Virus record (IMG/VR): IMGVR_UViG_3300045988_053918
Location: 1 to 54,149 of that record
Source of the DNA: a virus
Strand: one strand, 5' to 3'
Length of the DNA stretch: 54,149 nt
Position 1 is the first letter of the stretch, and each line of letters starts with the position of its first letter. Under the pieces are notes generated by a model, which did not search any database, was not told where the DNA came from, and worked only from the letters and a program-made list of their open reading frames with translations. A program made the translations under genes and the position numbers. Positions 4,236-33,189 of this stretch are shown here, piece by piece.

Positions 4236-5383
4236 TTGAGTTCAGATGTCCTTGATTTGAAGTTTAAGCAGGGAGACTTATTACGCAAAGCTAATGAGGA
4301 AAATGTTAAGGCTAGGAGAGGTCTTGAATCACAGATTAGCAACCTTAGTTATGTGATTGAGGATAGCAGAAAATCAATCGGCAACGCAGAAAATGTAGTT
4401 GGTTTTGATAAGAATAAGGTAGCTGAATATCAGAAAATGCTTGATGATAGCAGAACCGAATGGAAAGCTGAAAAAGAGCGTACATTTGACGAAAGTAGCC
4501 TTATTTGCCCTTATTGTAAGCAGGAATACCCGGAGGATAAAAAAGAGGAATTAAGGGCAGATTTTAAGGCGCATAAAAAAATGAACTTAACAGAATTACT
4601 GATAAGGGCAACACAGCTAAGGAAATGCTTGATGAAGCTAAAAAGGCATTAGATGAAGCTGAACAGGAATTGACCGACAGAAAGCAGAGGTTAGAAAAGC
4701 ATTTAGTTGATTTAGCAGACATTAAAAAGCAGTTATCAGAGCTTCCACAGGAAATTGATGTGTCAACTACCGAGGAATACAAGGTGCTCGAACAGCAGAT
4801 TGCAGAAAAAGAACAGGCTATGCACAAGGCTAACGATATTTCAGCAGTTAAGGCAGAATTAAAGGCACAGGAAACAGCTTTAAGGCAGCAGTTAGCAGAA
4901 TGTGAAAGCCAGATTGTAAAGTCTGATACGGCAGCAGATGAACAGCGACTTGAAGAATTAAGGCAGATAAGGACTGATTCTGAACAGAATAAGACTAATG
5001 CCGAGAAAATTCTTGATTTACTTGATGAACTGGATAAGGCGAAGAATGAAGCCTTGACAGAAGCAGTAAACAGCCATTTTGGGTTAGTTAAGTGGCAGTT
5101 ATTTGAATATGCCAAGAATGGTAATTACAAGAGTTGTTGCATACCTACAGTTGATGGAAAGAGCATTTTAACAACTATGAGCAATAAGGGTAACAGAATA
5201 CTTGGCAGAATTGATATTTGTAATTCTATTCAGAAGATTAGTGGTATATCAGTACCTATTGTTTTAGATGATTCTGAAAGTCTTAGTACAGATAATCAGA
5301 AGAAAGTTGCTGAAATGGTGGATAGTCAGTTGATTATGCTGATTGTCAATGATAGCGAGAAATTAGAGATTGTGGAGGGATAA
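4236..5383 (+). pseudogene. Rad50/SbcC-like coiled-coil ATPase remnant (zinc hook and Walker B head; frameshifted; no Walker A head)
   Basis: CPYC hook inside long coiled coils; C-terminal VPIVLDDSESL; reading frame breaks at the A7 run 4574-4580 (FKAHKK / NELNRITDKGNTAKEMLDEAKK). Confidence 0.6.
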
Positions 5384-5650: not shown

Positions 5651-6394
5651 ATGGCAGAGAATACACAGATAGTTGAGTATGAATCAAATGGGGAAATGGT
5701 AAAAATTTCTCCAACAATGATAAAAAGATACCTTGTAAGTGGCGGTGGTAATGTATCTGACGGAGAACTAATGATGTTCATGTCATTATGCAGATACCAG
5801 CACTTAAATCCGTTTTTGAGAGAAGTATACCTTATTAAGTATGGAAGCAACGACCCAGCCACAATAGTTACTGGAAAAGATGTTTTTACAAAGAGAGCCA
5901 ATGCGGACCCACGATATAAAGGAAAGAAAGCAGGAATTATTGTAATTAAAAAGGACGGAGCTGTTGAAGAGCGAGAGGGAACAATGGTTTTACCTAACGA
6001 AACTATCGTAGGTGGCTGGGCGAAAATCTTTATTGACGGAAAAGAGGACGAGTATCAGTCAGTAGGCTTTGATGAGTACGCAGGAAGAAAAAAAGATGGT
6101 TCGCTTAACAGCCAATGGGCGAAAAAGCCAGCCACAATGATTAGAAAAGTAGCTGTTGTGCAGGCCTTAAGAGAAGCATTTCCAGATAGATTTCAAGGTT
6201 TATATGCACAAGAGGAATTTCGAAATGTATCAGATGTAAAACTTGATACAGAAAAGGTTGTTGCTGATGAAATCAAAGAAAATGCAAATAGTGTAGATTT
6301 TGATGAGGACAACATAATTGATGTAGAGCCGACCGGCACAGCCGACAAGCAGTCAGAGGAACTACCACCATTCATGCAGAGTGAGGAGAGCTGA
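5651..6394 (+). CDS. recT: RecT-family single-strand annealing recombinase
   Basis: LCRYQHLNPFLREVYLIKYG...QWAKKPATMIRKVAVVQALREAFP. Confidence 0.9.
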   Translation: MAENTQIVEYESNGEMVKISPTMIKRYLVSGGGNVSDGELMMFMSLCRYQHLNPFLREVYLIKYGSNDPATIVTGKDVFTKRANADPRYKGKKAGIIVIKKDGAVEEREGTMVLPNETIVGGWAKIFIDGKEDEYQSVGFDEYAGRKKDGSLNSQWAKKPATMIRKVAVVQALREAFPDRFQGLYAQEEFRNVSDVKLDTEKVVADEIKENANSVDFDEDNIIDVEPTGTADKQSEELPPFMQSEES

Positions 6395-6883: not shown

Positions 6884-7624
6884 ATGTATCGCCACAGGAA
6901 GTACAGGAAATTGCTACACCTTAACTTCCAACAGCGGAGAAACACTTATCCTTGATTGTGGAATACCGATTAAGGAGATTAAAAAAGGCTTGAATTGGAA
7001 CATAAGGGGGATAAGGGGCATGATAATAAGTCATGCCCACCTCTAGACCATAGCAAGTCATTAAACGATTTTAAGTCAATGGGAATACCAATTTATGCAC
7101 CATATATACAATACGCACAACATGAGGGCATACATCGTTACCACACGATACCATTTAGCGGTTTTAAAGTTAAGGCATTTGACCTAACAACAATAGACGG
7201 AAATTGGACACATACAGACGCAGACGGAACACCTTGCCCGATATATGGCTTTCTGATTACTCACAAGGAAATGGGAAGAATGCTTTACATAACCGATTGT
7301 GAGGTTGTCAAGTGGAAGTTTAAAGACATAAACCACATTCTCTTAGGTGTGAATTATGACAAGGATTTAATTGACAGGGATAACACAGGCAAAGCTAATC
7401 ACGTTTTCAGAGGCCACTTATCCATTGACACGGCTTGCGATTTTGTTAAAGCAAATTATTCAGATAGCTTGCAGAATGTCATAATGTGCCATCTATCAAG
7501 TGAAAATTCTGATAGAGATAGTTTTATCGAGAAGATGAAAAAAGTTGCTTACGGGGCGAATGTGGATGTTGCAGAGTGCAACAAGGAATGGCTACTTGCT
7601 AATCCTAATGAGTGTCCGTTTTAG
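6873..7624 (+). pseudogene. MBL-fold metallo-hydrolase, frameshifted inside the HxHxDH motif
   Basis: MKLKCIATGSTGNCYTLTS...MIISHAH then CTCT at 7041-7044; removing one CT restores SHAHLDHSKS and joins to ORF 6995..7624. Confidence 0.8.
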
Positions 7625-14984: not shown

Positions 14985-15197
14985 ATGAAGTTTTCGGAAC
15001 TTACTAAGCCGGAACTTGAAAAGATATTGGAAAATGCCAATTTTACCGAGGAAGAAGAGAGAATATTCAGACTTCTTTCTCGGAATTTTACACAAAAAGA
15101 GATAGTTGCACGATTATGCGTATCGCAAAGAACTCTTGAAAGGAGAATAAGAAACATTAAAAATAAAATTGAAAGGGTGTGCTGTGATTGGAATTAA
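14985..15197 (+). CDS. Small sigma-70 region-4 / LuxR-type HTH regulator
   Basis: FTEEEERIFRLLSRNFTQKEIVARLCVSQRTLERRIRNIKNKI. Confidence 0.55.
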   Translation: MKFSELTKPELEKILENANFTEEEERIFRLLSRNFTQKEIVARLCVSQRTLERRIRNIKNKIERVCCDWN

Positions 15198-16435
15198 CAG
15201 ACAAAGAGTTGTTGAATTATGTACTGGAGAATGGTATTATCTCTCGTGACGATGTTCAAAAACAAATTGAAATGAACGAAAGGAAAAAATATTTAAAAGC
15301 ACACAATAATGAAATCTGGCAAGGAAAGGATAAGAAGTGGTATACATACTTGCCAGACGAAAGCACATCAAGCGGCAGAAAGCTGCTAAAGCGTTCAACG
15401 CAAGAGTCTCTTGAAGATGGAATTGTGGAACACTACAAGAAACTCGCTAATGAACCTTTAGTTAAGACTGTATTCAAGGAATGGGTAGACCAAAAACTTG
15501 AATATCACGAAATCAAGAAGCAATCATATGATAAGTATAATGATAACTTCGCCAGATTTTTCACTAATGAAGCATATCACATGGCAGATAAGAAAATCAA
15601 GTACATTACAGAAGATGGCTTAGAATGCTTTATTAAGACTGTTATTGTCGAATGTAAACTTACGCAAAAAGCATATTCTGATATGCGAATCCTTATTAAT
15701 GGCATTTTTAAATATGCCAAGAAAAAGGGGTATACCAATCTAAGTATCACACAATTTATGGGAGACTTGGATTTATCACGCAGAGCTTTTACTAAAAATG
15801 TGAAAAAGAAAGAGGAACAAGTGTATTTCGAGGATGAAATTCCAAGAATCACAGAATATCTATGGCAACGATATGATATAAGGAGCTTGGGATTATTGCT
15901 TATGTTTGAGTGCGGAATGAGAGCTGGCGAGTTATCATCACTTAAGTTTTCTGATATTCACAACACTGTACTGAAAGATGGAACTATTAAACATTATATT
16001 TCTATACAAAGAACAGAAATTAAGGTCAGAGATGAAAATGGGAAATGGGCTAAGATAGTAAGCGACTATCCTAAATCTGACGCAGGATTAAGAGATATAA
16101 TTATTCCAGACAAAGCTGTAAATACTGTTAAGGCAATTCGTAGATTAAATCCTTTTGGAACTTATATGTTTGAAGAAAAGGGAGAGCGTATAAAGGAACA
16201 AGCATTTAACAGAAAGTTGCATAAGATATGTAAGGCACTGGATATTAATTATCGTTCCACGCACAAAGTCCGCCGGGCATACAGTGTTGCGTTGTATGAT
16301 AATTGCGTGAGTGACACTGTTATAACAGAAATGATGGGGCATACAAGCATTGAGACAACAAGAAAATATTACATTTACAGTAATAAGACTGATAGGACTA
16401 AGATTGAGCAAGTTAATAATGCTATCAATTATTAG
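15188..16435 (+). CDS. int: Tyrosine recombinase / phage integrase
   Basis: C-terminal catalytic region ...RAGELSSLKF...HKVRRAYSVALYD...MGHTSIETTRKYY; TTG start. Confidence 0.9.
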   Translation: MELTDKELLNYVLENGIISRDDVQKQIEMNERKKYLKAHNNEIWQGKDKKWYTYLPDESTSSGRKLLKRSTQESLEDGIVEHYKKLANEPLVKTVFKEWVDQKLEYHEIKKQSYDKYNDNFARFFTNEAYHMADKKIKYITEDGLECFIKTVIVECKLTQKAYSDMRILINGIFKYAKKKGYTNLSITQFMGDLDLSRRAFTKNVKKKEEQVYFEDEIPRITEYLWQRYDIRSLGLLLMFECGMRAGELSSLKFSDIHNTVLKDGTIKHYISIQRTEIKVRDENGKWAKIVSDYPKSDAGLRDIIIPDKAVNTVKAIRRLNPFGTYMFEEKGERIKEQAFNRKLHKICKALDINYRSTHKVRRAYSVALYDNCVSDTVITEMMGHTSIETTRKYYIYSNKTDRTKIEQVNNAINY

Positions 16436-20534: not shown

Positions 20535-21290
20535 ATGGCTGACTTAAACAGTATAGGTGGACTGCATTACGAAATGATGAGAAGATGTTATAACCCCCAA
20601 AGTATAGCATTTAAAAGTTACGGAGCTAAGGGGATAAAAGTATGTGAAGAATGGCATGATAGAGATAATTTTAGAAAGTGGTGTAATGAAAATGGATATA
20701 CAAAAGGTCTAAGACTTAACAGAATTGATAGTACAAAGGATTATTGCCCAGAGAATTGTGTATTGGGAAATAAAAATTGCAAAGACCAAAACAGCGCACA
20801 CCAAAAACTATATAGAAACATAAGACAAAACAAAGCAATCAAAAAAGAGCTTGGAATTGAAAGATATACTGATAGTCCATTATACAGAAAACACAAGAAT
20901 ATGATGGAAAGATGTTATGATGAAAAAAATATAAGTTATCCTTATTACGGAGCAAGAGGAATAGATGTTTGCTTTGAATGGAGAGGAAAGGATGGTGTTA
21001 AAAATTTTATCGCTTGGTCTATGAGAAACGGATATAAGCATGGTCTTTCATTAGACAGAATAGATAACGATAAAGGTTATTGTCCTGAAAATTGCAGATG
21101 GGTTACTATTCAAGAACAAGCAATAAATAAGCGAAGAAATAAAAAATATGAATGGAAAGGGCAAACACTTATATTGGCTCAAATTTCAAGAATGGAAAAT
21201 ATTTCATATGGTAAATTATATGGAAGAATAAATAATAATCATATGAGTATAAAAGATGCAATCGAAGATATAAAGAAAAGCACCGAATAA
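20535..21290 (+). CDS. Tandem AP2/ERF-like DNA-binding repeat protein
   Basis: Two copies of RCYNP/RCYDE...YGA(K/R)GI.VCEEW...GY.KGL.L(N/D)RID..K(D/G)YCPENC. Confidence 0.5.
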   Translation: MADLNSIGGLHYEMMRRCYNPQSIAFKSYGAKGIKVCEEWHDRDNFRKWCNENGYTKGLRLNRIDSTKDYCPENCVLGNKNCKDQNSAHQKLYRNIRQNKAIKKELGIERYTDSPLYRKHKNMMERCYDEKNISYPYYGARGIDVCFEWRGKDGVKNFIAWSMRNGYKHGLSLDRIDNDKGYCPENCRWVTIQEQAINKRRNKKYEWKGQTLILAQISRMENISYGKLYGRINNNHMSIKDAIEDIKKSTE

Positions 21291-21306
21291 TCGGTGCTAT
21301 TTTTAT
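21279..21306 (+). terminator. Rho-independent terminator
   Basis: AGCACCGA-ATAA-TCGGTGCT followed by ATTTTTA. Confidence 0.7.
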
Positions 21307-21746
21307 GCTAACCTTAAAAGTACCCGCCACCCATGCAAAATAAACTTGAGATTTTGGAAATAAAAAATTTGAAAATTTCTGTCAGATTTGCAGTCAATTT
21401 TTTCAGTACGCCCCTATATACCTATGACTATATGAAAAATAAAGAAACGTCCCTATGTAAAAATTCGAGTTAAAAATTTTGATACCGGGGTGGGTATGTA
21501 ATTCCCACACGAAAAACCGAAATAGGATTTTCTCCAAATTTGACCTCAATTTTGTTCAGATTTGCCTTGAAAAATTGATAAAAAACTTTATAGCTTTAAC
21601 ACACTAAAGTGTATGGCTGATTCTTTGCGGTTATAGGTGCGGCTTACAATTTTGGCTTTGTGGCTTTGTGATTTGCCTTGTACGGCGGTTTTATTACGCT
21701 TGTGTAGATTTATAAGCCTACAAAATAAAACAGCCTTAAAACGTCT

Positions 21747-21775: not shown

Positions 21776-21945
21776 ATGCCCTTACAAGTTGTGGAAGCTG
21801 TCGCCAGTTTTGGCGGATTTTCCAGAACGCACGCCGCCCCAATTGGGTACACTTGTACACCTAAAAGCCTTATATATAAGCATAGCATTGTTGTATTAAT
21901 TTTTCAAGGTACGCAAAGAAAAGCATATAAAAATATATGCTTAAT

Positions 21946-21983
21946 GCTTGCGGCTGGAATCGAACCAGTCAAACCACAGCAAG
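21946..21983 (-). ncRNA. tRNA-like minihelix 1 (T-arm plus closing helix)
   Basis: - strand CUUGC-UGUGGUUUG-ACUGG-UUCGAUU-CCAGC-C-GCAAG; canonical T-loop, no D or anticodon arms. Confidence 0.4.
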
Positions 21984-22011
21984 ACAAAAAGGGCGCAGAT
22001 TGTACGCCCTT
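21984..22011 (-). terminator. Rho-independent terminator of the reverse cassette
   Basis: - strand AAGGGCG-UACAAUCU-CGCCCUU followed by UUUUGUCUU. Confidence 0.7.
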
Positions 22012-22021
22012 AATCAAGTTA

Positions 22022-22291
22022 TTAATTGTTAAATTCATAAAATAGACCGCTTTTATTATAACAAGTTGTAAGCCTTTTTAAGCCATAAAAAATATCATAG
22101 TTACAATCAAAAACAGCCTGCGAACCTGTGTATATAATTACGCTTTGTCCATTATCCCAGAAAGAAAAATCTTCTATTTTTTCGAGTTCTAAGATTTTAA
22201 CTGCATTTTCCCCATAGATAAATATGAATTTTTCTAAATTTCCGCGGATTTCTCCGGCTGTTAAAGTGTCTAATTTTTCGCATATTGTCAT
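22022..22291 (-). CDS. Hypothetical protein (reverse-strand cassette, distal gene)
   Basis: GGAGGT RBS 7 nt before the second ATG (22291). Confidence 0.55.
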   Translation of the reverse strand: MTICEKLDTLTAGEIRGNLEKFIFIYGENAVKILELEKIEDFSFWDNGQSVIIYTGSQAVFDCNYDIFYGLKRLTTCYNKSGLFYEFNN

Positions 22292-22335
22292 ATTGCAGAC
22301 CTCCATATTTTAAAATTTCCCGGTCATTCCGGTAA

Positions 22336-22376
22336 AGCAAGCCGGGGAATCGAACCCCGGAAGCGCCAACCTTGCT
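22336..22376 (-). ncRNA. tRNA-like minihelix 2 (T-arm plus closing helix)
   Basis: - strand AGCAAG-GUUGGCGCUU-CCGGGG-UUCGAUU-CCCCGG-CUUGCU, between the two reverse-strand genes. Confidence 0.4.
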
Positions 22377-22381
22377 AATTA

Positions 22382-22798
22382 TTAATTATTTGCTTTTTCT
22401 GCGTGCTTTGTAAGCTCTCTATAAAGTAGATTACATGCTGTTGCTTCTGCTTTATCATCTGTATATCTTACCTTTTCCTCTTCTGTCTCGTCTAAAATAT
22501 CGGCGAGCCAATCAACGGCAGAGCCAAGGAAAATATCATCAGAAACAGGAAAAGCTGTTGGAAGTCCTGCCATCCAATCGCAAAATAAAGAATATTTGCT
22601 AATCCTTCCGGCTTTATATTGGCAATCGTGCTTAACCTTTTCATTTTCAAAAGCTGTCAAAATGTCCTTGCAAATATCGTTATAATCTGTCTTTGCTTCC
22701 TTGCCGTCATATGTGTAATACTCTTCAGCTGCTTCGTAACTCTCAATAATTGCTTTCTTAATTGCTTCCATTGCTTCCTTGCTGTTTGTTCTTCTCAT
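22382..22798 (-). CDS. Acidic hypothetical protein (reverse-strand cassette, proximal gene)
   Basis: 138-aa ORF with clean coding periodicity; no recognisable catalytic motif. Confidence 0.6.
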   Translation of the reverse strand: MRRTNSKEAMEAIKKAIIESYEAAEEYYTYDGKEAKTDYNDICKDILTAFENEKVKHDCQYKAGRISKYSLFCDWMAGLPTAFPVSDDIFLGSAVDWLADILDETEEEKVRYTDDKAEATACNLLYRELTKHAEKANN

Positions 22799-22887: not shown

Positions 22888-22960
22888 TTTGCAAGATTAT
22901 AATAACACTAATATTAGTGCTTGTCAACACCAAAATTAGAGATTTTATACGATATTTTGA

Positions 22961-23021: not shown

Positions 23022-23249
23022 ATGTGGAGATATAAAATAGATGTGCTTAAGGAATTATCTAACAGAGGATATACAAGTACAAAAATGCGCAAAGACAAGA
23101 TAATTAGTCAAGCGACACTACAGAATATAAGACAGGGAAAAGGCATAACAACGGACACAATTAATACATTATGTATTATATTAAAGTGCCAGCCGTCGGA
23201 TATTATAGAGGTAACACCAACGGACGAGGAAAAAATAAAATATTTTTAA
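23022..23249 (+). CDS. XRE/Cro-type HTH protein
   Basis: ISQATLQNIRQGKGITTDTINTLCIILKCQPSDII; AAAGGAG RBS. Confidence 0.7.
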   Translation: MWRYKIDVLKELSNRGYTSTKMRKDKIISQATLQNIRQGKGITTDTINTLCIILKCQPSDIIEVTPTDEEKIKYF

Positions 23250-26022: not shown

Positions 26023-26094
26023 TGCACCATAGCCAAGCGGTAAGGCACAGAGCTTTGACCTCTGTATGCGTCGGTTCGAATCCGACTGGTGTAG
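26023..26094 (+). tRNA. tRNA-Gln (anticodon TTG)
   Basis: Cloverleaf folds by hand: acceptor TGCACCA/TGGTGTA (U1-A72), anticodon arm CAGAG-CTTTGAC-CTCTG, T-arm GTCGG-TTCGAAT-CCGAC. Confidence 0.85.
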
Positions 26095-26307
26095 TTTGTC
26101 TTACTTTTATCGTAGACTACCATGTTTTGCATTTTAAGGTAATCCTCCTTTCATGTACTTTCTTGGAGATCCAGTTAAGGGTGGTGCAAGACCACTCGGA
26201 AAGGCTTACCTCATACAGAGGTGCGAAAATCAACTTATCAAGGTTCTTCTCAATATCCCCCCAAATATTATTGCATTTTCCCTTGATAGCCGTTACAGGC
26301 GGTATTT

Positions 26308-26390
26308 GCCGATATGGGATAAAGGTATTCCAGTAGCTTGCTAAGCTATCCAACAGAAATGTTGTTCGTGTTCGATTCACGATGTCGGCG
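26308..26390 (+). tRNA. tRNA-Ser (anticodon GCT), class II
   Basis: Acceptor GCCGATA/TGTCGGC, anticodon arm GTAGC-TTGCTAA-GCTAT, long variable arm CAACA-GAAA-TGTTG, T-arm TCGTG-TTCGATT-CACGA. Confidence 0.8.
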
Positions 26391-26392
26391 CT

Positions 26393-26463
26393 CTCACATA
26401 CAAGTGAAATGGAAATATAGTTGTTGGTTACCTGTATTATCCTAAAACCAACCCGTATGTGAG
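26393..26463 (+). other. Nested-hairpin spacer filling the gap between two RNA genes
   Basis: CTCACATAC (26393-26401) pairs with GTATGTGAG (26455-26463); inner GTTGGTT (26423-26429) pairs with AACCAAC (26446-26452). Confidence 0.7.
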
Positions 26464-26464
26464 T

Positions 26465-26665
26465 TGATGTGTGGCGGAATGGGTAAACGCTAACTGGTGG
26501 TTAAGAGAAAGGTGTGCGACAAGGATTGCTAGAACAAGTCTGGTAAATAGCTGTAAGCAATCACACCTATAAATCCGTTAGAAAATAAAAATCCATCTAT
26601 CCCTATTTGTAGGTGCAGACTAACTGACGGAATCTCATGTGTGGTTCAAATCCACACCACATCAA
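26465..26665 (+). ncRNA. 201-nt tRNA-like RNA (tRNA ends bracketing a structured insert)
   Basis: 7-bp acceptor TGATGTG/CACATCA; Leu-type D-arm TG-GCG-GAATGGGTAAA-CGC; T hairpin GTGTGG-TTCAAAT-CCACAC; internal 13-bp interrupted helix 26510-26568. Confidence 0.5.
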
Positions 26666-26810
26666 GTGGTTGGGTCATTCCCGAATAAGCAGGCGTTGCA
26701 GTAGTCCCTGCTGAAATAATTAAAATGTTTGCGTTGGTTGATTTGCGAACAGGACGGCAAATAGCGTAATGAAGTGCCATAAATACTTTCCAACACAAGA
26801 AACTGTACAA

Positions 26811-26882
26811 CGGATAGTAGTTCAGTTGGGAGTAACGCTTGATTTATTCAAGTAGTCACAGGTTCAAGTCCTGTCTATCCGA
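26811..26882 (+). tRNA. tRNA with a UUA (ochre-reading) anticodon; non-canonical anticodon loop, possibly a pseudo-tRNA
   Basis: Acceptor CGGATAG/CTATCCG, T-arm ACAGG-TTCAAGT-CCTGT, anticodon arm GCTTG-ATTTATT-CAAGT (U33, TTA, but T at position 37); weak D-stem. Confidence 0.5.
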
Positions 26883-27004
26883 TTACAACAAACTAGGTTA
26901 GCTACCGAAAAGCACTTCCGCTGTGCCTGTTTGTTGTTTTTATCAATTAAGCGGAGTATGTATCACAGGCATGCATAAATAATATCAAGCGGAGGTATTC
27001 GATT

Positions 27005-31319: not shown

Positions 31320-31422
31320 TTACTTGATTACCGGCTAACAAATAGAGTTAGTCGCTACCCTAAAACAGTTATAGGCAGAGGTCTATAAGCGCCTTTGCTT
31401 TTAAGTGGAGGTGCTTTTCTTT

Positions 31423-33189
31423 ATGGCTAGTCAGAGCCTTATTTCCACAGTTAATGGATATGAAAATTACATAGAGAAAAATGGAATAGATGAAAGCGTT
31501 ATGGACGCATACATAGAAGCGTCAGAAGTGGCAATTAAAACTGAAAAGGATATTCAGTATGGATTACAACTAACAAAACGCTGTAAAGAGATTATAGAAC
31601 AGTTTTGCGTGGAGCATAGCGGCGTTGGAATATGGGACTTAGAAAAATATGCTCAAGACAACGATGAAGAATATCCTTTAATTGACAAATGGTATAAAAC
31701 TCTTAAAACTGAAAGTTATTATGATTTTGAGAGCTTTATGTTTTATATGGAACGGAAAAGACATTATAGCAAAAGGTTTTATTTTCCAAGACGACACACC
31801 CTTAAAATAGTTGTCAATGATTTGCAAGACCTTGAAAACAGAATAATTAAATTTTATGGATTATCAATGCCGTCAAGAGTTGGAAAGTCCACAATTTGTA
31901 TATTCTTTCTTGCGTGGGTATCATTACGCAGACCTAATAGCCATTCAGCTATGGGAGGTCACTCTGGAATACTTGCAAAAGGCTTTTATAAAGAACTTAT
32001 GAACTTATTTACTACGGAAGAATATACATTTTCTGAATTATTTTATTTTTGGAATCCAGAATACGCAAATAAACCGCTTGTAACAGATAAAAGTGCTGAT
32101 GAATTTACAATAACCCTTGGAAATCCAGACAGATTTGCAACAGTTACTTGCCGTGGTATTGATGGAACTTGGATTGGTGCAGTTGATGTATCAAAAGATG
32201 GATATTTGTATGTAGATGACTTGGTAAGAGATAGAGAACATTCATTGTCACCTATGCGAATGGAAAATACCCATCAAGAGTATCTAAACAAGATGGTTGA
32301 CCGAAAAAACGATGGTGCAAGAGAATTGATGGTAGGTACATTATGGAATGTCCTTGATCCATTGGAACGAATGAGAAAGCAATATGAAAATGACTCTCAA
32401 TACAGATTTAGAAGAATACCGGCACTTGATGAAAACGATGAAAGTAACTTTGATTATGAAATAAACGGCTTTTCAACAGCATATTACAGGGATATGAGAG
32501 AAAAACTTGACAAGGCTGAATGGATGGCTAAGTTTATGCAAAAACCTTATGTTCGTGAGGGATTACTATTCCCAGACAATGAATTGAGATTTTTCAATGG
32601 AGACTTTAACCAGGAGCTGGAAAACAAAGAACGGAAAGTAATTGCATTGTGTGACCCGGCTTTTGGCGGAGCTGATAATTTATCAATGCCGGTATGTGCT
32701 GATTTTGGCGGAAAGCAGAAATATATTATTGATTGGGTATATAAAAAAGGCACACAGGCGGTTACAGTTCCATTGGTTGTAGCAGCTATCAAGAAACATT
32801 ACATAACAGAATTGCACATTGAACAAAATGCTGGTGGGAAGCTAATAACGGACAGTATAAAAGCTGAAATGAAAAAGCAGAATGTATATTTTTGCAGAAT
32901 TATTCCATATTACGCAAATACCAAACTACCTAAAGAGGAAAAAATCAAAGGATATTCTGACAGAGTAAAAGAAACTTTTATTTTCCTTATGAGTAGGCAG
33001 TATCTTGCAATAGATGATAGACCAACTTACATAAGAACACAGATGTATCAAGATGCTATGGATGAATTTACAATGTATACATCAGAGGGTAAAAATCCAC
33101 ACGATGATGCAAGCGATTCGATAACACAGCTTGCAATAGTAATAGATAAAAAGGCAACACAAACAGTAATAATGTCAAGTCCGATATAA
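31423..33189 (+). CDS. terL: Terminase large subunit
   Basis: Walker A SRVGKST, Walker B YLYVDDLV, nuclease-domain motifs CDPAFGGADN and NPHDDASDSIT. Confidence 0.85.
   Translation: MASQSLISTVNGYENYIEKNGIDESVMDAYIEASEVAIKTEKDIQYGLQLTKRCKEIIEQFCVEHSGVGIWDLEKYAQDNDEEYPLIDKWYKTLKTESYYDFESFMFYMERKRHYSKRFYFPRRHTLKIVVNDLQDLENRIIKFYGLSMPSRVGKSTICIFFLAWVSLRRPNSHSAMGGHSGILAKGFYKELMNLFTTEEYTFSELFYFWNPEYANKPLVTDKSADEFTITLGNPDRFATVTCRGIDGTWIGAVDVSKDGYLYVDDLVRDREHSLSPMRMENTHQEYLNKMVDRKNDGARELMVGTLWNVLDPLERMRKQYENDSQYRFRRIPALDENDESNFDYEINGFSTAYYRDMREKLDKAEWMAKFMQKPYVREGLLFPDNELRFFNGDFNQELENKERKVIALCDPAFGGADNLSMPVCADFGGKQKYIIDWVYKKGTQAVTVPLVVAAIKKHYITELHIEQNAGGKLITDSIKAEMKKQNVYFCRIIPYYANTKLPKEEKIKGYSDRVKETFIFLMSRQYLAIDDRPTYIRTQMYQDAMDEFTMYTSEGKNPHDDASDSITQLAIVIDKKATQTVIMSSPI

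What the first reader, a model, noticed from the sequence alone, without database searches (positions are those of the whole stretch)
21946..22376. Two tRNA-like minihelices (T-arm plus closing stem) embedded in the reverse-strand cassette
On the - strand, each of the two genes is followed by an element with a canonical T-loop. One is AGCAAG-GUUGGCGCUU-[CCGGGG UUCGAUU CCCCGG]-CUUGCU (22336-22376). The other is CUUGC-UGUGGUUUG-[ACUGG UUCGAUU CCAGC]-C-GCAAG (21946-21983). In both, a 5-6-bp helix closes directly onto the T-arm, like an acceptor stem stacked on a T-stem. A 9-10-nt linker replaces the D-arm, anticodon arm and variable region. Acceptor/T-arm minihelices are known minimal substrates for RNase P and CCA-adding enzymes, so these could be mRNA processing or stabilising signals. 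They could also be scars of tRNA-targeted integration events that brought the cassette in. Copy 1 sits between two - strand terminators (21984-22011 and the AAGCATATA/TATATGCTT hairpin at 21919-21940).
Basis: partly seen in the sequence, partly recalled or inferred. Interest (0 to 1): 0.65.

Follow-up and report, generated by a model that had tools for sequence, protein, structure and literature searches.

The report
tRNA top-half mimics punctuating phage genes
Two roughly 40-base RNA elements that copy only the acceptor stem and T-arm of a tRNA sit between the genes of a small reverse-strand operon in this gut phage; they belong to a large, previously undescribed family found at the junctions of a highly shuffled accessory-gene array, and most likely make the host's tRNA-trimming enzymes cut the messenger RNA into separate modules.

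Summary

They belong to a conserved family. In 254 related human-gut phage and prophage loci I found 410 such minihelices on the cassette-sense strand. Only 27 non-tRNA hits lie on the other strand. The family falls into about 16 sequence classes whose closing helices differ but always pair: 97% of cells are paired, against 56% in shuffles, and 10 of 12 pairs show changes on both sides.

All classes keep these features:
- the T-loop TTCRANN;
- a pair equivalent to G53:C61;
- a 12-13 bp coaxial stack;
- a short linker, usually with GG;
- U after the discriminator, and no encoded CCA;
- a small covarying hairpin 3-4 nt downstream.

They are not tRNA genes and not att scars. The 3' halves match no tRNA gene in 185,579 species genomes or in 241 million metagenome records. 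They match no Rfam family.

The class A element joins 7 kinds of upstream sequence to 17 kinds of downstream sequence, and 30 unrelated small ORFan families follow it.

Best reading, inferred and not shown: the elements are RNase P/RNase Z processing signals, like the "t-elements" of plant mitochondria. They insulate interchangeable expression cassettes and also supply homology for shuffling. No transcript data could be obtained.

The parts
22899..22927 (-). Promoter-like site of the reverse-strand operon (TTGACA, 17 nt, TATTAT with an upstream TG), divergent from the Cro/C1-type HTH gene at 23022-23249 (+)
   Evidence: 11 of 12 consensus positions; HTH_26 hit. Consensus match only; transcription is not shown.
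22382..22798 (-). First cassette gene, 138 aa, an ORFan. It ends in tandem TAA TAA, 5 nt before minihelix 1.
   Evidence: no Pfam or PHROG hit; 52 related loci
22336..22376 (-). Minihelix 1 (class A): acceptor-like helix 22376-22371 with 22341-22336; 10-nt GG-containing linker 22370-22361; T-stem 22360-22355 with 22347-22342; T-loop TTCGATT 22354-22348
   Evidence: the MFE of the isolated element is the minihelix, -16.5 kcal/mol; CM R1 score 76.5 bits; covariation
22320..22332 (-). Small trailing hairpin CCGG-AATGA-CCGG, 3 nt after minihelix 1. It is followed by an A/T-rich spacer and the Shine-Dalgarno sequence GGAGG at 22304-22300.
   Evidence: the stem covaries among loci: CCCG/CGGG, CTCA/TGAG, AGCCGAT/ATCGGCT and others; mean z -2.67; the hairpin starts 3-4 nt after the acceptor end in 102 of 148 trailers
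22022..22291 (-). Second cassette gene. It is most likely 89 aa, starting at the ATG at 22291, 8 nt after GGAGG. The listed 94-aa ORF starts at 22306, inside the Shine-Dalgarno sequence.
   Evidence: homologues in other loci begin MTICEKL
21984..22011 (-). Intrinsic-terminator-like GC hairpin plus T-run, abutting the 5' end of minihelix 2
   Evidence: the same hairpin and T-run precede all terminal-class minihelices
21946..21984 (-). Minihelix 2 (class B, a slightly degenerate copy): acceptor-like helix 21984-21979 with 21951-21946; linker TGTGGTTT 21978-21971; T-stem 21970-21965 with 21957-21952 (one A.C mismatch); T-loop TTCGATT 21964-21958
   Evidence: 36 further copies with the same architecture in gut metagenome contigs
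21921..21942 (-). Trailing AT-rich hairpin AAGCATATA-TTTT-TATATGCTT, 3 nt after minihelix 2, followed by TTTTC. It looks like a second terminator.
   Evidence: the stem covaries: AAGCGTATA, AAGTGTATA, CCATATTA and others

Best explanation
The two elements are members of a phage-borne family of RNA mimics of the tRNA 'top half'. Each has an acceptor-like stem stacked coaxially on a canonical T-arm, 12-13 bp in all. A short GG-containing linker probably stands in for the D-loop at the tRNA elbow.

They are transcribed as part of the polycistronic mRNA of a small reverse-strand accessory-gene operon. The host's tRNA-maturation enzymes treat them as pre-tRNAs.
- RNase P cuts at the 5' end of the acceptor helix, a few nucleotides after the upstream stop codon.
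- RNase Z cuts after the discriminator base. The elements encode no CCA and nearly always have U at position 74.

This would cut the operon transcript into independent cistrons. It would also release a mini-RNA of about 40 nt, which could then receive CCA. Each downstream cistron would begin 2-3 nt before a small hairpin. In Firmicutes a hairpin in that position should protect a monophosphorylated 5' end from 5'-to-3' decay.

At the end of the array the element follows a terminator hairpin, so cleaved read-through transcripts would end like terminated ones. Each unit (hairpin, ribosome-binding site, gene, minihelix) would then be a self-contained, context-independent expression cassette. The conserved minihelix plus hairpin also gives the phage's RecT recombinase homology for swapping cassettes.

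Shown: the structure, its conservation and covariation, its strand and position, the absence of a tRNA origin, and the mosaicism. Inferred: transcription, cleavage by RNase P and RNase Z, the stabilising role of the hairpin, and recombination at the element.
For: (1) Structure. In 45 distinct elements 97.0% of cells pair, against 56.4% in shuffles (0 of 500 shuffles reach this) and 30-52% when the partner is slid. Ten of 12 pairs change on both sides. The pair equivalent to G53:C61 is essentially invariant. About 12% of cells are G.U pairs, which are acceptable only on the sense strand, so the structure is RNA.

(2) Strand and census. There are 410 non-tRNA elements on the cassette-sense strand and 27 on the other, in 254 loci totalling 2.2 Mb. 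All 231 real tRNA genes lie on the opposite, main strand. There are about 16 helix-sequence clusters.

(3) Geometry and flanks expected of RNase P and RNase Z substrates:
- the stack is 12 bp in 85, 13 bp in 43 and 14 bp in 7 of 135 unique elements;
- N-1 is U in 75 of 135;
- N74 is U in 115 of 135;
- CCA at positions 74-76 occurs in 1 of 135;
- GG occurs in the linker in 106 of 135.
Variants with longer linkers form a mini D-arm with GG in its loop.

(4) Position. Class A starts 1-5 nt after a stop codon. It is followed by a covarying hairpin, an A-rich spacer, GGAGG and ATG. The hairpin is significant (mean z -2.67) and starts 3-4 nt after the acceptor end in 102 of 148 trailers.

(5) Not a tRNA or a scar.

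(6) Mosaic junction. Seven upstream and 17 downstream sequence clusters occur in 27 combinations. Thirty unrelated ORFan families lie downstream. RecT and SSB genes are in the window.

(7) Precedent. Plant mitochondrial t-elements carry the same GGTTCRANYCC motif. Their mapped ends, with non-templated C/CC/CCA, coincide with mRNA termini made by RNase P and RNase Z (PMC1920247).
Against: No transcript or cleavage data exist.

The terminal elements lie downstream of a decent intrinsic terminator, so only read-through RNA would contain them. That is an odd place for a processing signal.

Cleavage by RNase P directly after the stop codon would leave the upstream mRNA with an unprotected 3' end.

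The linker position in the pair counts was chosen to maximise pairing. A shuffle test run on each class separately gives only p of about 0.03-0.3.

Class A is so conserved in sequence that part of its persistence could reflect recent spread by recombination rather than selection on RNA function.

The RNase Z preference for U74 and the protective effect of a 5'-proximal hairpin are recalled from the Bacillus subtilis literature. They were not checked here and have not been tested in Lachnospiraceae.
Confidence: 0.5

Rival explanations
1. The released mini-RNA is itself the functional product. It could be a decoy or sponge for host factors that recognise the tRNA acceptor/T-arm or elbow. Candidates are defence toxins that modify or cleave tRNA 3' ends, or tRNA-modifying, CCA-adding or RNase P machinery. 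It could also be a regulator. On this view mRNA cleavage is only a side effect.
For: The elements lie in a hypervariable array of small ORFans, which is typical of counter-defence islands. Several distinct acceptor-helix classes coexist within one array. The T-loop and the linker GG, which are the elbow features, are strictly conserved. MH-like elements also sit at the end of the main-strand tRNA cluster in related phages. There they would be made together with tRNAs.
Against: There is no anticodon arm, so the elements cannot decoy anticodon nucleases. No particular target is indicated. The linker-less variant (L028/L053) keeps its place in the array. The tight coupling to stop codons, trailing hairpins and ribosome-binding sites is better explained by a role in cis.
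Confidence: 0.2
2. The elements act as tRNA-like 3' end structures of the upstream mRNA. Transcripts end at or near the trailing hairpin, are trimmed to the discriminator and receive CCA. The result is a nuclease-resistant, tRNA-like 3' terminus, comparable to the tRNA-like structures of plant RNA viruses. No RNase P cut would be involved.
For: Every element is followed after 3-4 nt by a hairpin. For class B the hairpin carries a U-run like a terminator. This arrangement is the same as a tRNA gene followed by its terminator. CCA is not encoded.
Against: Class A hairpins are short and lack a U-run, and genes continue downstream with their own Shine-Dalgarno sequence. An accessible 12-bp acceptor/T minihelix is a classic RNase P substrate (own knowledge), so the 5' cut is hard to avoid. 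Terminal elements are already preceded by a terminator.
Confidence: 0.12
3. The elements act at the DNA level. They would be recombination sites or linker sequences for cassette exchange, working like integron attC sites or the PeSL motifs of T4-type phages, with no RNA function. The tRNA likeness would be a relic of their origin.
For: Class A joins 7 upstream to 17 downstream sequence clusters. The array is built of gene-plus-element units. RecT, SSB and a tyrosine integrase are encoded in the window. PeSLs set a precedent for conserved intergenic motifs at shuffling junctions (PMC2839356, PMC4122927).
Against: Homology-driven exchange needs sequence identity, not base pairing. Yet pairing is kept through compensatory and G.U changes that work on one strand only. 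T-loop positions 54-58 and the G53:C61 equivalent are invariant across classes whose stems are unrelated. No attC-type R/L core motifs are present. The integrase lies 6 kb away.
Confidence: 0.1
4. The elements are scars or pseudogenes. They would be 3' fragments of tRNA genes left by integration at tRNA att sites, or decayed phage tRNA genes, and have no function.
For: The T-arm is canonical. Related phages carry variable tRNA clusters. Long-linker variants look like tRNAs that have lost only the anticodon arm, so an origin from tRNA genes is plausible.
Against: The 23-nt 3' halves of both copies are found in no tRNA gene. Of 7 genome hits and 37 metagenome hits, all but two are the same minihelix architecture. 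The 5' closing strand is present and covaries. The elements are kept in more than 250 loci, on one strand, in a fixed position relative to genes.
Confidence: 0.03

Closest known systems
t-elements of plant mitochondria (tRNA-like elements that define mRNA ends; Forner et al. 2007, PMC1920247)
   Same: They carry the GGTTCRANYCC T-arm motif and an acceptor-like stem, but are not functional tRNAs. They are embedded in mRNA precursors next to coding regions. There, RNase P and RNase Z cleavage at their ends makes the mRNA 3' and 5' termini, and the excised element carries non-templated C/CC/CCA.
   Different: The plant elements are non-canonical cloverleaves in an organelle genome. They are few and not arranged as an array. 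The phage elements are stripped to about 31-50 nt (acceptor, linker and T-arm). They come with a fixed trailing hairpin, occur in a bacteriophage, and mark the junctions of a shuffled gene array. Cleavage has not been shown here.
mascRNA / MEN-beta tRNA-like elements of MALAT1 and NEAT1 (Rfam RF01684)
   Same: A tRNA-like element inside a longer transcript, whose cleavage by RNase P forms the 3' end of the upstream RNA. A small CCA-tailed RNA is released (own knowledge).
   Different: These are eukaryotic and form a full cloverleaf. The Rfam model scores copy 1 at only 18.2 bits against a gathering threshold of 42.5 (E = 1.1), so the phage element is not a member.
TMERs of murine gammaherpesvirus 68 (viral tRNA-like element followed by pre-miRNA hairpins)
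   Same: A viral tRNA-like element is followed directly by a hairpin. tRNase Z cuts between the two (own knowledge).
   Different: These are Pol III transcripts of an animal herpesvirus with cloverleaf-like tRNAs, and the hairpins are miRNA precursors. There is no relation to mRNA cistrons.
tRNA-like domain of tmRNA, and bacterial Y RNA (YrlA) tRNA-like modules (PMC4201824)
   Same: Both have an acceptor stem plus T-arm with a reduced D region and no anticodon arm. Both are recognised by tRNA-processing and tRNA-modifying enzymes.
   Different: Both are parts of large dedicated non-coding RNAs with other domains: a tag reading frame and pseudoknots in tmRNA, a Ro-binding stem in YrlA. Rfam matches here cover only the 17-18 nt T-arm (15.4 bits against a threshold of 47).
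Synthetic acceptor-T-arm minihelix substrates of RNase P, CCA-adding enzyme and some aminoacyl-tRNA synthetases
   Same: The same 12-bp coaxial acceptor/T stack with a 7-nt T-loop. The linker-less variant in L028/L053 is exactly such a hairpin.
   Different: Those are laboratory constructs. These are natural, conserved and embedded in mRNA, and most carry a GG linker bulged from the 5' strand.
PeSL motifs of T4-type phages (PMC2839356, PMC4122927) and integron attC sites
   Same: Conserved short intergenic elements with a stem-loop that flank small, variable, mostly ORFan genes and coincide with the junctions of modular shuffling.
   Different: PeSLs are promoter-plus-terminator composites, and attC sites are recombinase substrates folded as single-stranded DNA. 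Neither has a T-loop or any tRNA likeness. Here the pairing pattern points to an RNA structure. No attC core motifs and no adjacent integron integrase are present.

Membership tests
Canonical tRNA gene (Rfam RF00005 / ARAGORN) | Cloverleaf with D-arm, anticodon arm and anticodon | tested here: not met
   ARAGORN calls only three tRNAs, all at 26023-26882 (+). There is no RF00005 match at either element, even at E up to 10. Only 8-10 nt lie between the acceptor strand and the T-stem.
Canonical tRNA gene (Rfam RF00005 / ARAGORN) | T-arm with T54-psi55-C56-R57-A58 loop and G53:C61 pair | tested here: met
   TTCGATT loops; the loop-closing G:C pair is present in 43 of 45 distinct family members.
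tRNA-like processing elements (t-elements; works-like class) | GGTTCRANYCC T-arm motif closed by an acceptor-like helix, in a sequence that is not a functional tRNA | tested here: met
tRNA-like processing elements (t-elements; works-like class) | Lies in sense orientation within an mRNA precursor, adjacent to coding regions | tested here: inconclusive
   Position and strand fit: 410 sense against 27 antisense hits, 1-5 nt after stop codons, and a promoter-like site upstream with no terminator before copy 1. Transcription itself was not observed.
tRNA-like processing elements (t-elements; works-like class) | Element ends coincide with mapped transcript ends; cleaved by RNase P and RNase Z; non-templated CCA added | not testable with these tools
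Indirect support only: 12-13 bp stack, U74 in 115 of 135, CCA encoded in 1 of 135.
mascRNA-menRNA (Rfam RF01684) | Score at or above the curated gathering threshold (42.5 bits) | tested here: not met
   18.2 bits, E = 1.1
tmRNA (Rfam RF00023) | Full tRNA-like domain plus tag reading frame; score at or above 47 bits | tested here: not met
   Only model positions 346-363 (the T-arm) match, at 15.4 and 7.1 bits. ARAGORN finds no tmRNA.
Phage att site / scar of a tRNA 3' end | Sequence identity with the 3' part of a host tRNA gene | tested here: not met
   The copy 1 3' half has 7 exact hits in 185,579 species genomes, none in a called tRNA; 6 are the same minihelix. The copy 2 3' half has 37 hits in metagenome contigs, none in a called tRNA; 36 are the same architecture. 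Only exact 23-mers were searched.
Phage att site / scar of a tRNA 3' end | No selective maintenance of a 5' closing strand | tested here: not met
   The closing helix is kept through changes on both sides, for example AGCAAG/CTTGCT to GGCAAG/CTTGCC and GCTTGC/GCAAGC to GCTTGT/ACAAGC.
Integron attC site | R''-L''/L'-R' inverted core sites (GTTRRRY), and an adjacent IntI integrase with attI and Pc | tested here: not met
   No such core is present at the element ends (read directly). The only integrase is a generic Phage_integrase protein 6 kb away on the other strand. The IntI-specific domain was not examined.
Intrinsic (Rho-independent) terminator | GC-rich hairpin followed immediately by a U-run | tested here: not met
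   The scan flags the T-arm of copy 1. However, its 'tail' CTTGCTTTAC is the 3' acceptor strand, which pairs with AGCAAG, and genes with their own Shine-Dalgarno sequence follow.

The most novel reading that the evidence does not exclude
A lineage of abundant human-gut Lachnospiraceae phages has evolved miniature tRNA-elbow mimics, each with a trailing hairpin, as natural RNA 'insulators'. By borrowing host RNase P and RNase Z, the elements turn every small accessory gene (probably a counter-defence gene) into a plug-and-play cassette. Expression of each cassette would not depend on its neighbours, and its conserved borders would drive rapid shuffling. This would be the first tRNA-punctuation system described for a bacterial virus. 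The excised CCA-tailed mini-RNAs may additionally act as decoys for defences that target the tRNA 3' end.
Probability: 0.35. Interest if true: 0.85.

Novelty: new variant of a known kind. Interest (0 to 1): 0.68.

Why it matters
If the elements are cleaved as proposed, four things follow.

- tRNA punctuation of mRNAs is known from mitochondria and from a few eukaryotic long non-coding RNAs. This would show that it is also used by bacteriophages.
- It would explain how hypervariable ORFan arrays keep each newly acquired gene expressed.
- It would offer a compact natural part of about 60 nt for separating cistrons in Firmicutes.
- It would add a new, easily recognisable RNA family for annotating gut viromes.

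The conserved borders also give a concrete handle on how accessory (probably anti-defence) genes are exchanged among gut phages.

Tried and rejected
- **MAFFT alignments of full elements (A1, A2, A7).** They were out of structural register because linker lengths and acceptor sequences differ, so I did not use them for pair counts. RNAalifold on A7 still recovered the acceptor helix.
- **Covariance model from class A only (R1).** It is too sequence-specific. It finds class A in about 90 of 97 loci, but the other classes score only 12-35 bits.
- **N-padded structural alignment (A5).** It aligned without gaps. I did not turn it into a model, because the padded columns would have become match states.
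- **Per-class shuffle test of the closing helix.** It was not significant for any single class (p about 0.03-0.3), because the search over linker positions is permissive. The argument rests on covariation, strand bias and fixed geometry instead.
- **BLAST of the region and of each element against 50,697 deposited phage genomes.** No match.
- **Pfam and PHROGs on the two cassette proteins, and Pfam on ten other cassette proteins.** No hits.
- **Search for a phage-encoded RNA-processing enzyme.** None found. The metallo-beta-lactamase-fold protein at 6995-7624 matches a generic 'metal-dependent hydrolase' PHROG next to RecT.
- **Literature searches for a prior description.** None found.
- **Considered and rejected:** att scars, terminators, integron attC sites, and fragments of tmRNA or mascRNA.
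Full report
**1. Setting**

The window is a siphovirus-like temperate phage or prophage with about 36% G+C. Nearly all its genes are on the + strand.
- Recombination genes: RecT at 5651-6394, and two SSB genes.
- Other DNA-metabolism genes: a DNA methylase, a DnaD/G39P-type loader, and a tyrosine integrase at 15188-16435.
- A terminase at 31405-33189.

The finding lies in the only sizeable - strand block. In order, this block contains:
- a promoter-like site at 22927-22899, divergent from a Cro/C1 HTH gene;
- a 138-aa ORFan;
- minihelix 1;
- an ORFan of 89 aa (listed as 94 aa);
- a terminator hairpin;
- minihelix 2;
- a second hairpin.

Neither protein has a Pfam or PHROG match.

**2.

Both elements read exactly as described. 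GGTTCGATTCC occurs exactly only at these two sites in 54 kb. With up to 1 mismatch allowed there are 4 hits, against 0.31 expected. A scan for any T-arm-like hairpin finds six in the window: four in the + strand tRNA cluster, and these two.

ARAGORN and Rfam do not call them tRNAs. The best Rfam matches are far below threshold: mascRNA at 18.2 bits against 42.5, and the tmRNA T-arm at 15.4 bits against 47.

Folded alone, copy 1 adopts the minihelix as its minimum-energy structure, and so does the class B consensus. In context the single-sequence z-scores are modest. The case therefore rests on comparison with related loci.

**3. A family, not two oddities**

Searching IMG/VR with the two cassette proteins gave 97 loci from phage contigs, most of about 55-60 kb. 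The two proteins mostly occur in different phages. Even so, almost every locus has a minihelix like copy 1 (class A) on the cassette strand. Many also have a terminal minihelix like copy 2 (class B).

Further classes appear with unrelated stems:
- TTCGCGT/GCGCGGA with TTCCGG/CCGGGA;
- CGGCAAG/CTTGCTG with GGGCGG/CCGCCC;
- GCCGTTC/GGGCGGC with GGCTGG/CCAGCC;
- ATCCGTT/GGCGGAT with GCAGGG/CCCTGC;
- AAGTGAC/GTCACTT with GGGCGG/CCGTCC;
- and others.

After DNA-pattern scans added more loci, I took a census of 254 oriented loci totalling 2.2 Mb.
- 410 non-tRNA elements lie on the cassette-sense strand: 150 unique sequences in about 16 helix-sequence clusters.
- 27 non-tRNA hits lie on the other strand.
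- All 231 real tRNA genes lie on the other, main strand.

**4. Structure**

I excised the linker from 45 distinct elements, so that the 12-bp stack is in one register, and counted pairs.
- 97.0% of cells form standard pairs, against 56.4% in column shuffles (0 of 500 reach this) and 30-52% when the 3' partner is slid.
- Ten of 12 pairs show changes on both sides.
- The two pairs next to the loop are almost invariant G:C, like G53:C61 and G52:C62 of tRNA.
- About 12% of cells are G.U. These would be A.C mismatches on the other strand, so the structure belongs to the sense-strand RNA.

Two caveats apply. The linker position was chosen to maximise pairing. A shuffle test for each class alone is weak (p about 0.03-0.3).

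Clear within-class compensations nevertheless exist:
- A1:U72 to G:C in Lachnospiraceae genome copies;
- C:G to U:A in class B;
- G.U to A:U in the 7-bp T-stems.

Across 135 unique elements with their flanks:
- the coaxial stack is 12 bp (85), 13 bp (43) or 14 bp (7), compared with 7+5 = 12 in tRNA;
- the linker is 0-19 nt and contains GG in 106;
- the base after the discriminator is U in 115;
- CCA is encoded in 1;
- the base before the helix is U in 75.

Long-linker variants fold their linker into a mini D-arm with GG in the loop: UGCA-GGCGG-UGCA, AAUU-AAAGG-AAUU and AAAG-AAAGG-CUUU. One variant has no linker at all and is a plain 14-bp T-loop hairpin (L028/L053).

The family therefore looks like tRNAs reduced to the acceptor/T-arm 'top half', with a remnant of the D-loop that could complete the elbow.

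**5. Fixed surroundings**

Class A begins 1-5 nt after a stop codon. Three to four nucleotides after the element's 3' end there is always a small hairpin whose stem covaries: CCGG/CCGG, CCCG/CGGG, CTCA/TGAG, AGCCGAT/ATCGGCT and others. After it come an A-rich spacer, GGAGG and the next start codon.

Over 148 unique trailers the hairpin is significant (mean z -2.67). It starts 3-4 nt after the acceptor end in 102.

Terminal classes (B, C, G, I, J) are directly preceded by a GC hairpin plus T-run. They are followed by their own hairpin and then, for class B, a conserved promoter-like sequence.

**6. Not scars of tRNA genes**

The 23-nt 3' half of copy 1 has 7 exact matches in one genome from each of 185,579 species. 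None lies in a called tRNA. Six are the same minihelix-plus-hairpin unit, in Lachnospiraceae, Roseburia, Eubacteriales and Clostridium sp. CAG:510 contigs and in one MAG labelled Treponema.

The 3' half of copy 2 has 37 matches in 241 million metagenome records. Thirty-six have the same terminator, minihelix and hairpin architecture, nearly all in human-gut assemblies and many on contigs of about 56-59 kb. One is a chance hit in a GC-rich contig. None lies in a called tRNA.

No deposited phage genome matches. The likely hosts are therefore gut Lachnospiraceae, and the phages are uncultivated.

**7. Mosaic junctions**

Class A joins 7 unrelated kinds of upstream sequence to 17 kinds of downstream sequence, in 27 combinations. 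The genes that follow it fall into 30 unrelated families of 45-128 aa. Ten of these were tested and none has a Pfam match.

So the minihelix-hairpin unit is the conserved border of exchangeable ORFan cassettes. This resembles PeSL motifs in T4-type hyperplastic regions.

**8. Mechanism**

An accessible 12-bp acceptor/T minihelix with a canonical T-loop is a minimal substrate for bacterial RNase P, RNase Z and CCA-adding enzyme (established knowledge). The closest natural precedent is the plant mitochondrial t-element. It has the same GGTTCRANYCC motif, and its mapped ends coincide with mRNA termini and carry non-templated C/CC/CCA (PMC1920247).

These features all fit elements that are cut out of a polycistronic mRNA by RNase P and RNase Z:
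- sense-strand restriction;
- the position between a stop codon and a ribosome-binding site;
- the measured stack length;
- U at position -1 and at position 74;
- the absence of encoded CCA.

After an RNase Z cut, the downstream cistron would start 2-3 nt before a hairpin. In Firmicutes this arrangement is expected to slow 5'-exonucleolytic decay (own knowledge, not tested here). The same conserved unit would serve as homology for RecT-mediated cassette exchange.

I put 0.5 on this reading. What is shown is the RNA structure, its conservation, its position, its non-tRNA nature and the mosaicism. Transcription, cleavage and stabilisation are inferred.

Weak points:
- The terminal elements sit behind a terminator.
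- An RNase P cut would leave the upstream mRNA without a 3' hairpin.
- No transcript data could be obtained.

**9. Rivals**

- The excised mini-RNA may be the product, for example a decoy for factors that bind the tRNA acceptor end or elbow (0.2).
- The element may serve as a tRNA-like 3' terminus without a 5' cut (0.12).
- It may be only a DNA-level recombination linker (0.1). One-strand-specific covariation and the invariant T-loop count against this.
- It may be a functionless scar (0.03). This is contradicted by sections 4 and 6.

**10. Novelty**

No Rfam 15 family matches, and no paper in the searchable library describes such elements in phages or bacteria. I class it as a new variant of a known kind: tRNA-like processing elements. 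It has a distinctive minimal architecture, a fixed trailing hairpin and a role at cassette borders.

Noticed in passing
window 26811-26882 (+) and 26886-26952 (+); also L111, L117, L118, L128, L130, L133, L141: The phage tRNA cluster contains a suppressor tRNA with anticodon TTA, which reads UAA. It is followed immediately by a match to Rfam int-alpA RNA (45.3 bits against a gathering threshold of 35.8). Related phages carry, in the equivalent cluster, either this ochre suppressor or a 72-nt 'tRNA-SeC(tca)' that looks like an opal suppressor. Both cassette genes in the window end in tandem in-frame TAA codons.
   Followed up: partly
window 26100-26800 (+), especially 26640-26665: The tRNAs are separated by long non-coding spacers. 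There is an extra T-arm (GTGTGG-TTCAAAT-CCACAC) that neither ARAGORN nor Rfam calls. The ARAGORN tRNA-Ser(gct) at 26308-26391 is not confirmed by Rfam at its gathering threshold. These may be intron-containing or degenerate tRNAs.
   Followed up: no
window about 21907 down to about 21545 (- strand): Directly after minihelix 2 and its hairpin lies a highly conserved promoter-like sequence (TTGAAA, 17 nt, TATGCT; 21907-21879). It is followed by about 330-400 nt that are 77-89% identical in more than 55 loci and contain no credible ORF. This is probably a non-coding RNA. RNAalifold finds hairpins but little covariation.
   Followed up: partly
window 21707-21742 (- strand: GTTTTAAGGCTGTTTTATTTTGTAGGCTTATAAATC): Inside that conserved non-coding region is a 36-nt stretch resembling a type II-A CRISPR repeat (Rfam CRISPR-DR22, 19.3 bits, E 0.3-0.4). 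In L037, L118 and L129 the same position holds a different sequence of 36-40 nt. This could be a solitary repeat or an RNA anti-CRISPR candidate.
   Followed up: no
L147 9957-10004; also L178, L179, L183, L194, L249: Minihelix-like elements also occur on the main strand, at the 3' end of the tRNA cluster of some related phages: AGCGGT, a 17-18-nt GG-rich linker, CAGGG-TTCGATT-CCCTG, TGCCGCT, with T-stem covariation. They are preceded by a conserved region of about 120 nt. This suggests that the family derives from phage tRNA genes.
   Followed up: partly
L028 3077-3107 (same contig as L053): A class A variant with the whole linker deleted. It is a perfect 12-bp (up to 14-bp) hairpin with the T-loop, and still sits between the 138-aa and 94-aa genes.
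   Followed up: no
L102 about 4450-4540 (Polyangiaceae MAG): An unrelated GC-rich genome carries an element with the identical T-arm and 3' acceptor strand. It has a 9-bp closing helix (ATCGCAAGC/GCTTGCGAT) and about 43 nt between, and ARAGORN does not call it. It may be a different tRNA-like RNA.
   Followed up: no
window 22291-22306 (-): The listed 94-aa ORF starts at an ATG that overlaps the Shine-Dalgarno sequence GGAGG. The real start is probably the ATG at 22291 (89 aa, beginning MTICEKL), as in the homologues.
   Followed up: yes
window 20535-21290 (+) and 21279-21298: An HNH endonuclease gene (PHROG 3377, E = 2e-74) ends at a perfect bidirectional hairpin (AGCACCGAATAATCGGTGCT). The hairpin also closes the - strand non-coding region. 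So the - strand block is bounded by convergent termination.
   Followed up: no
window 6995-7624 (+): A metallo-beta-lactamase-fold 'metal-dependent hydrolase' (PHROG 392) lies beside RecT and SSB. This is the same fold superfamily as RNase Z and RNase J, but nothing here indicates an RNA role.
   Followed up: partly
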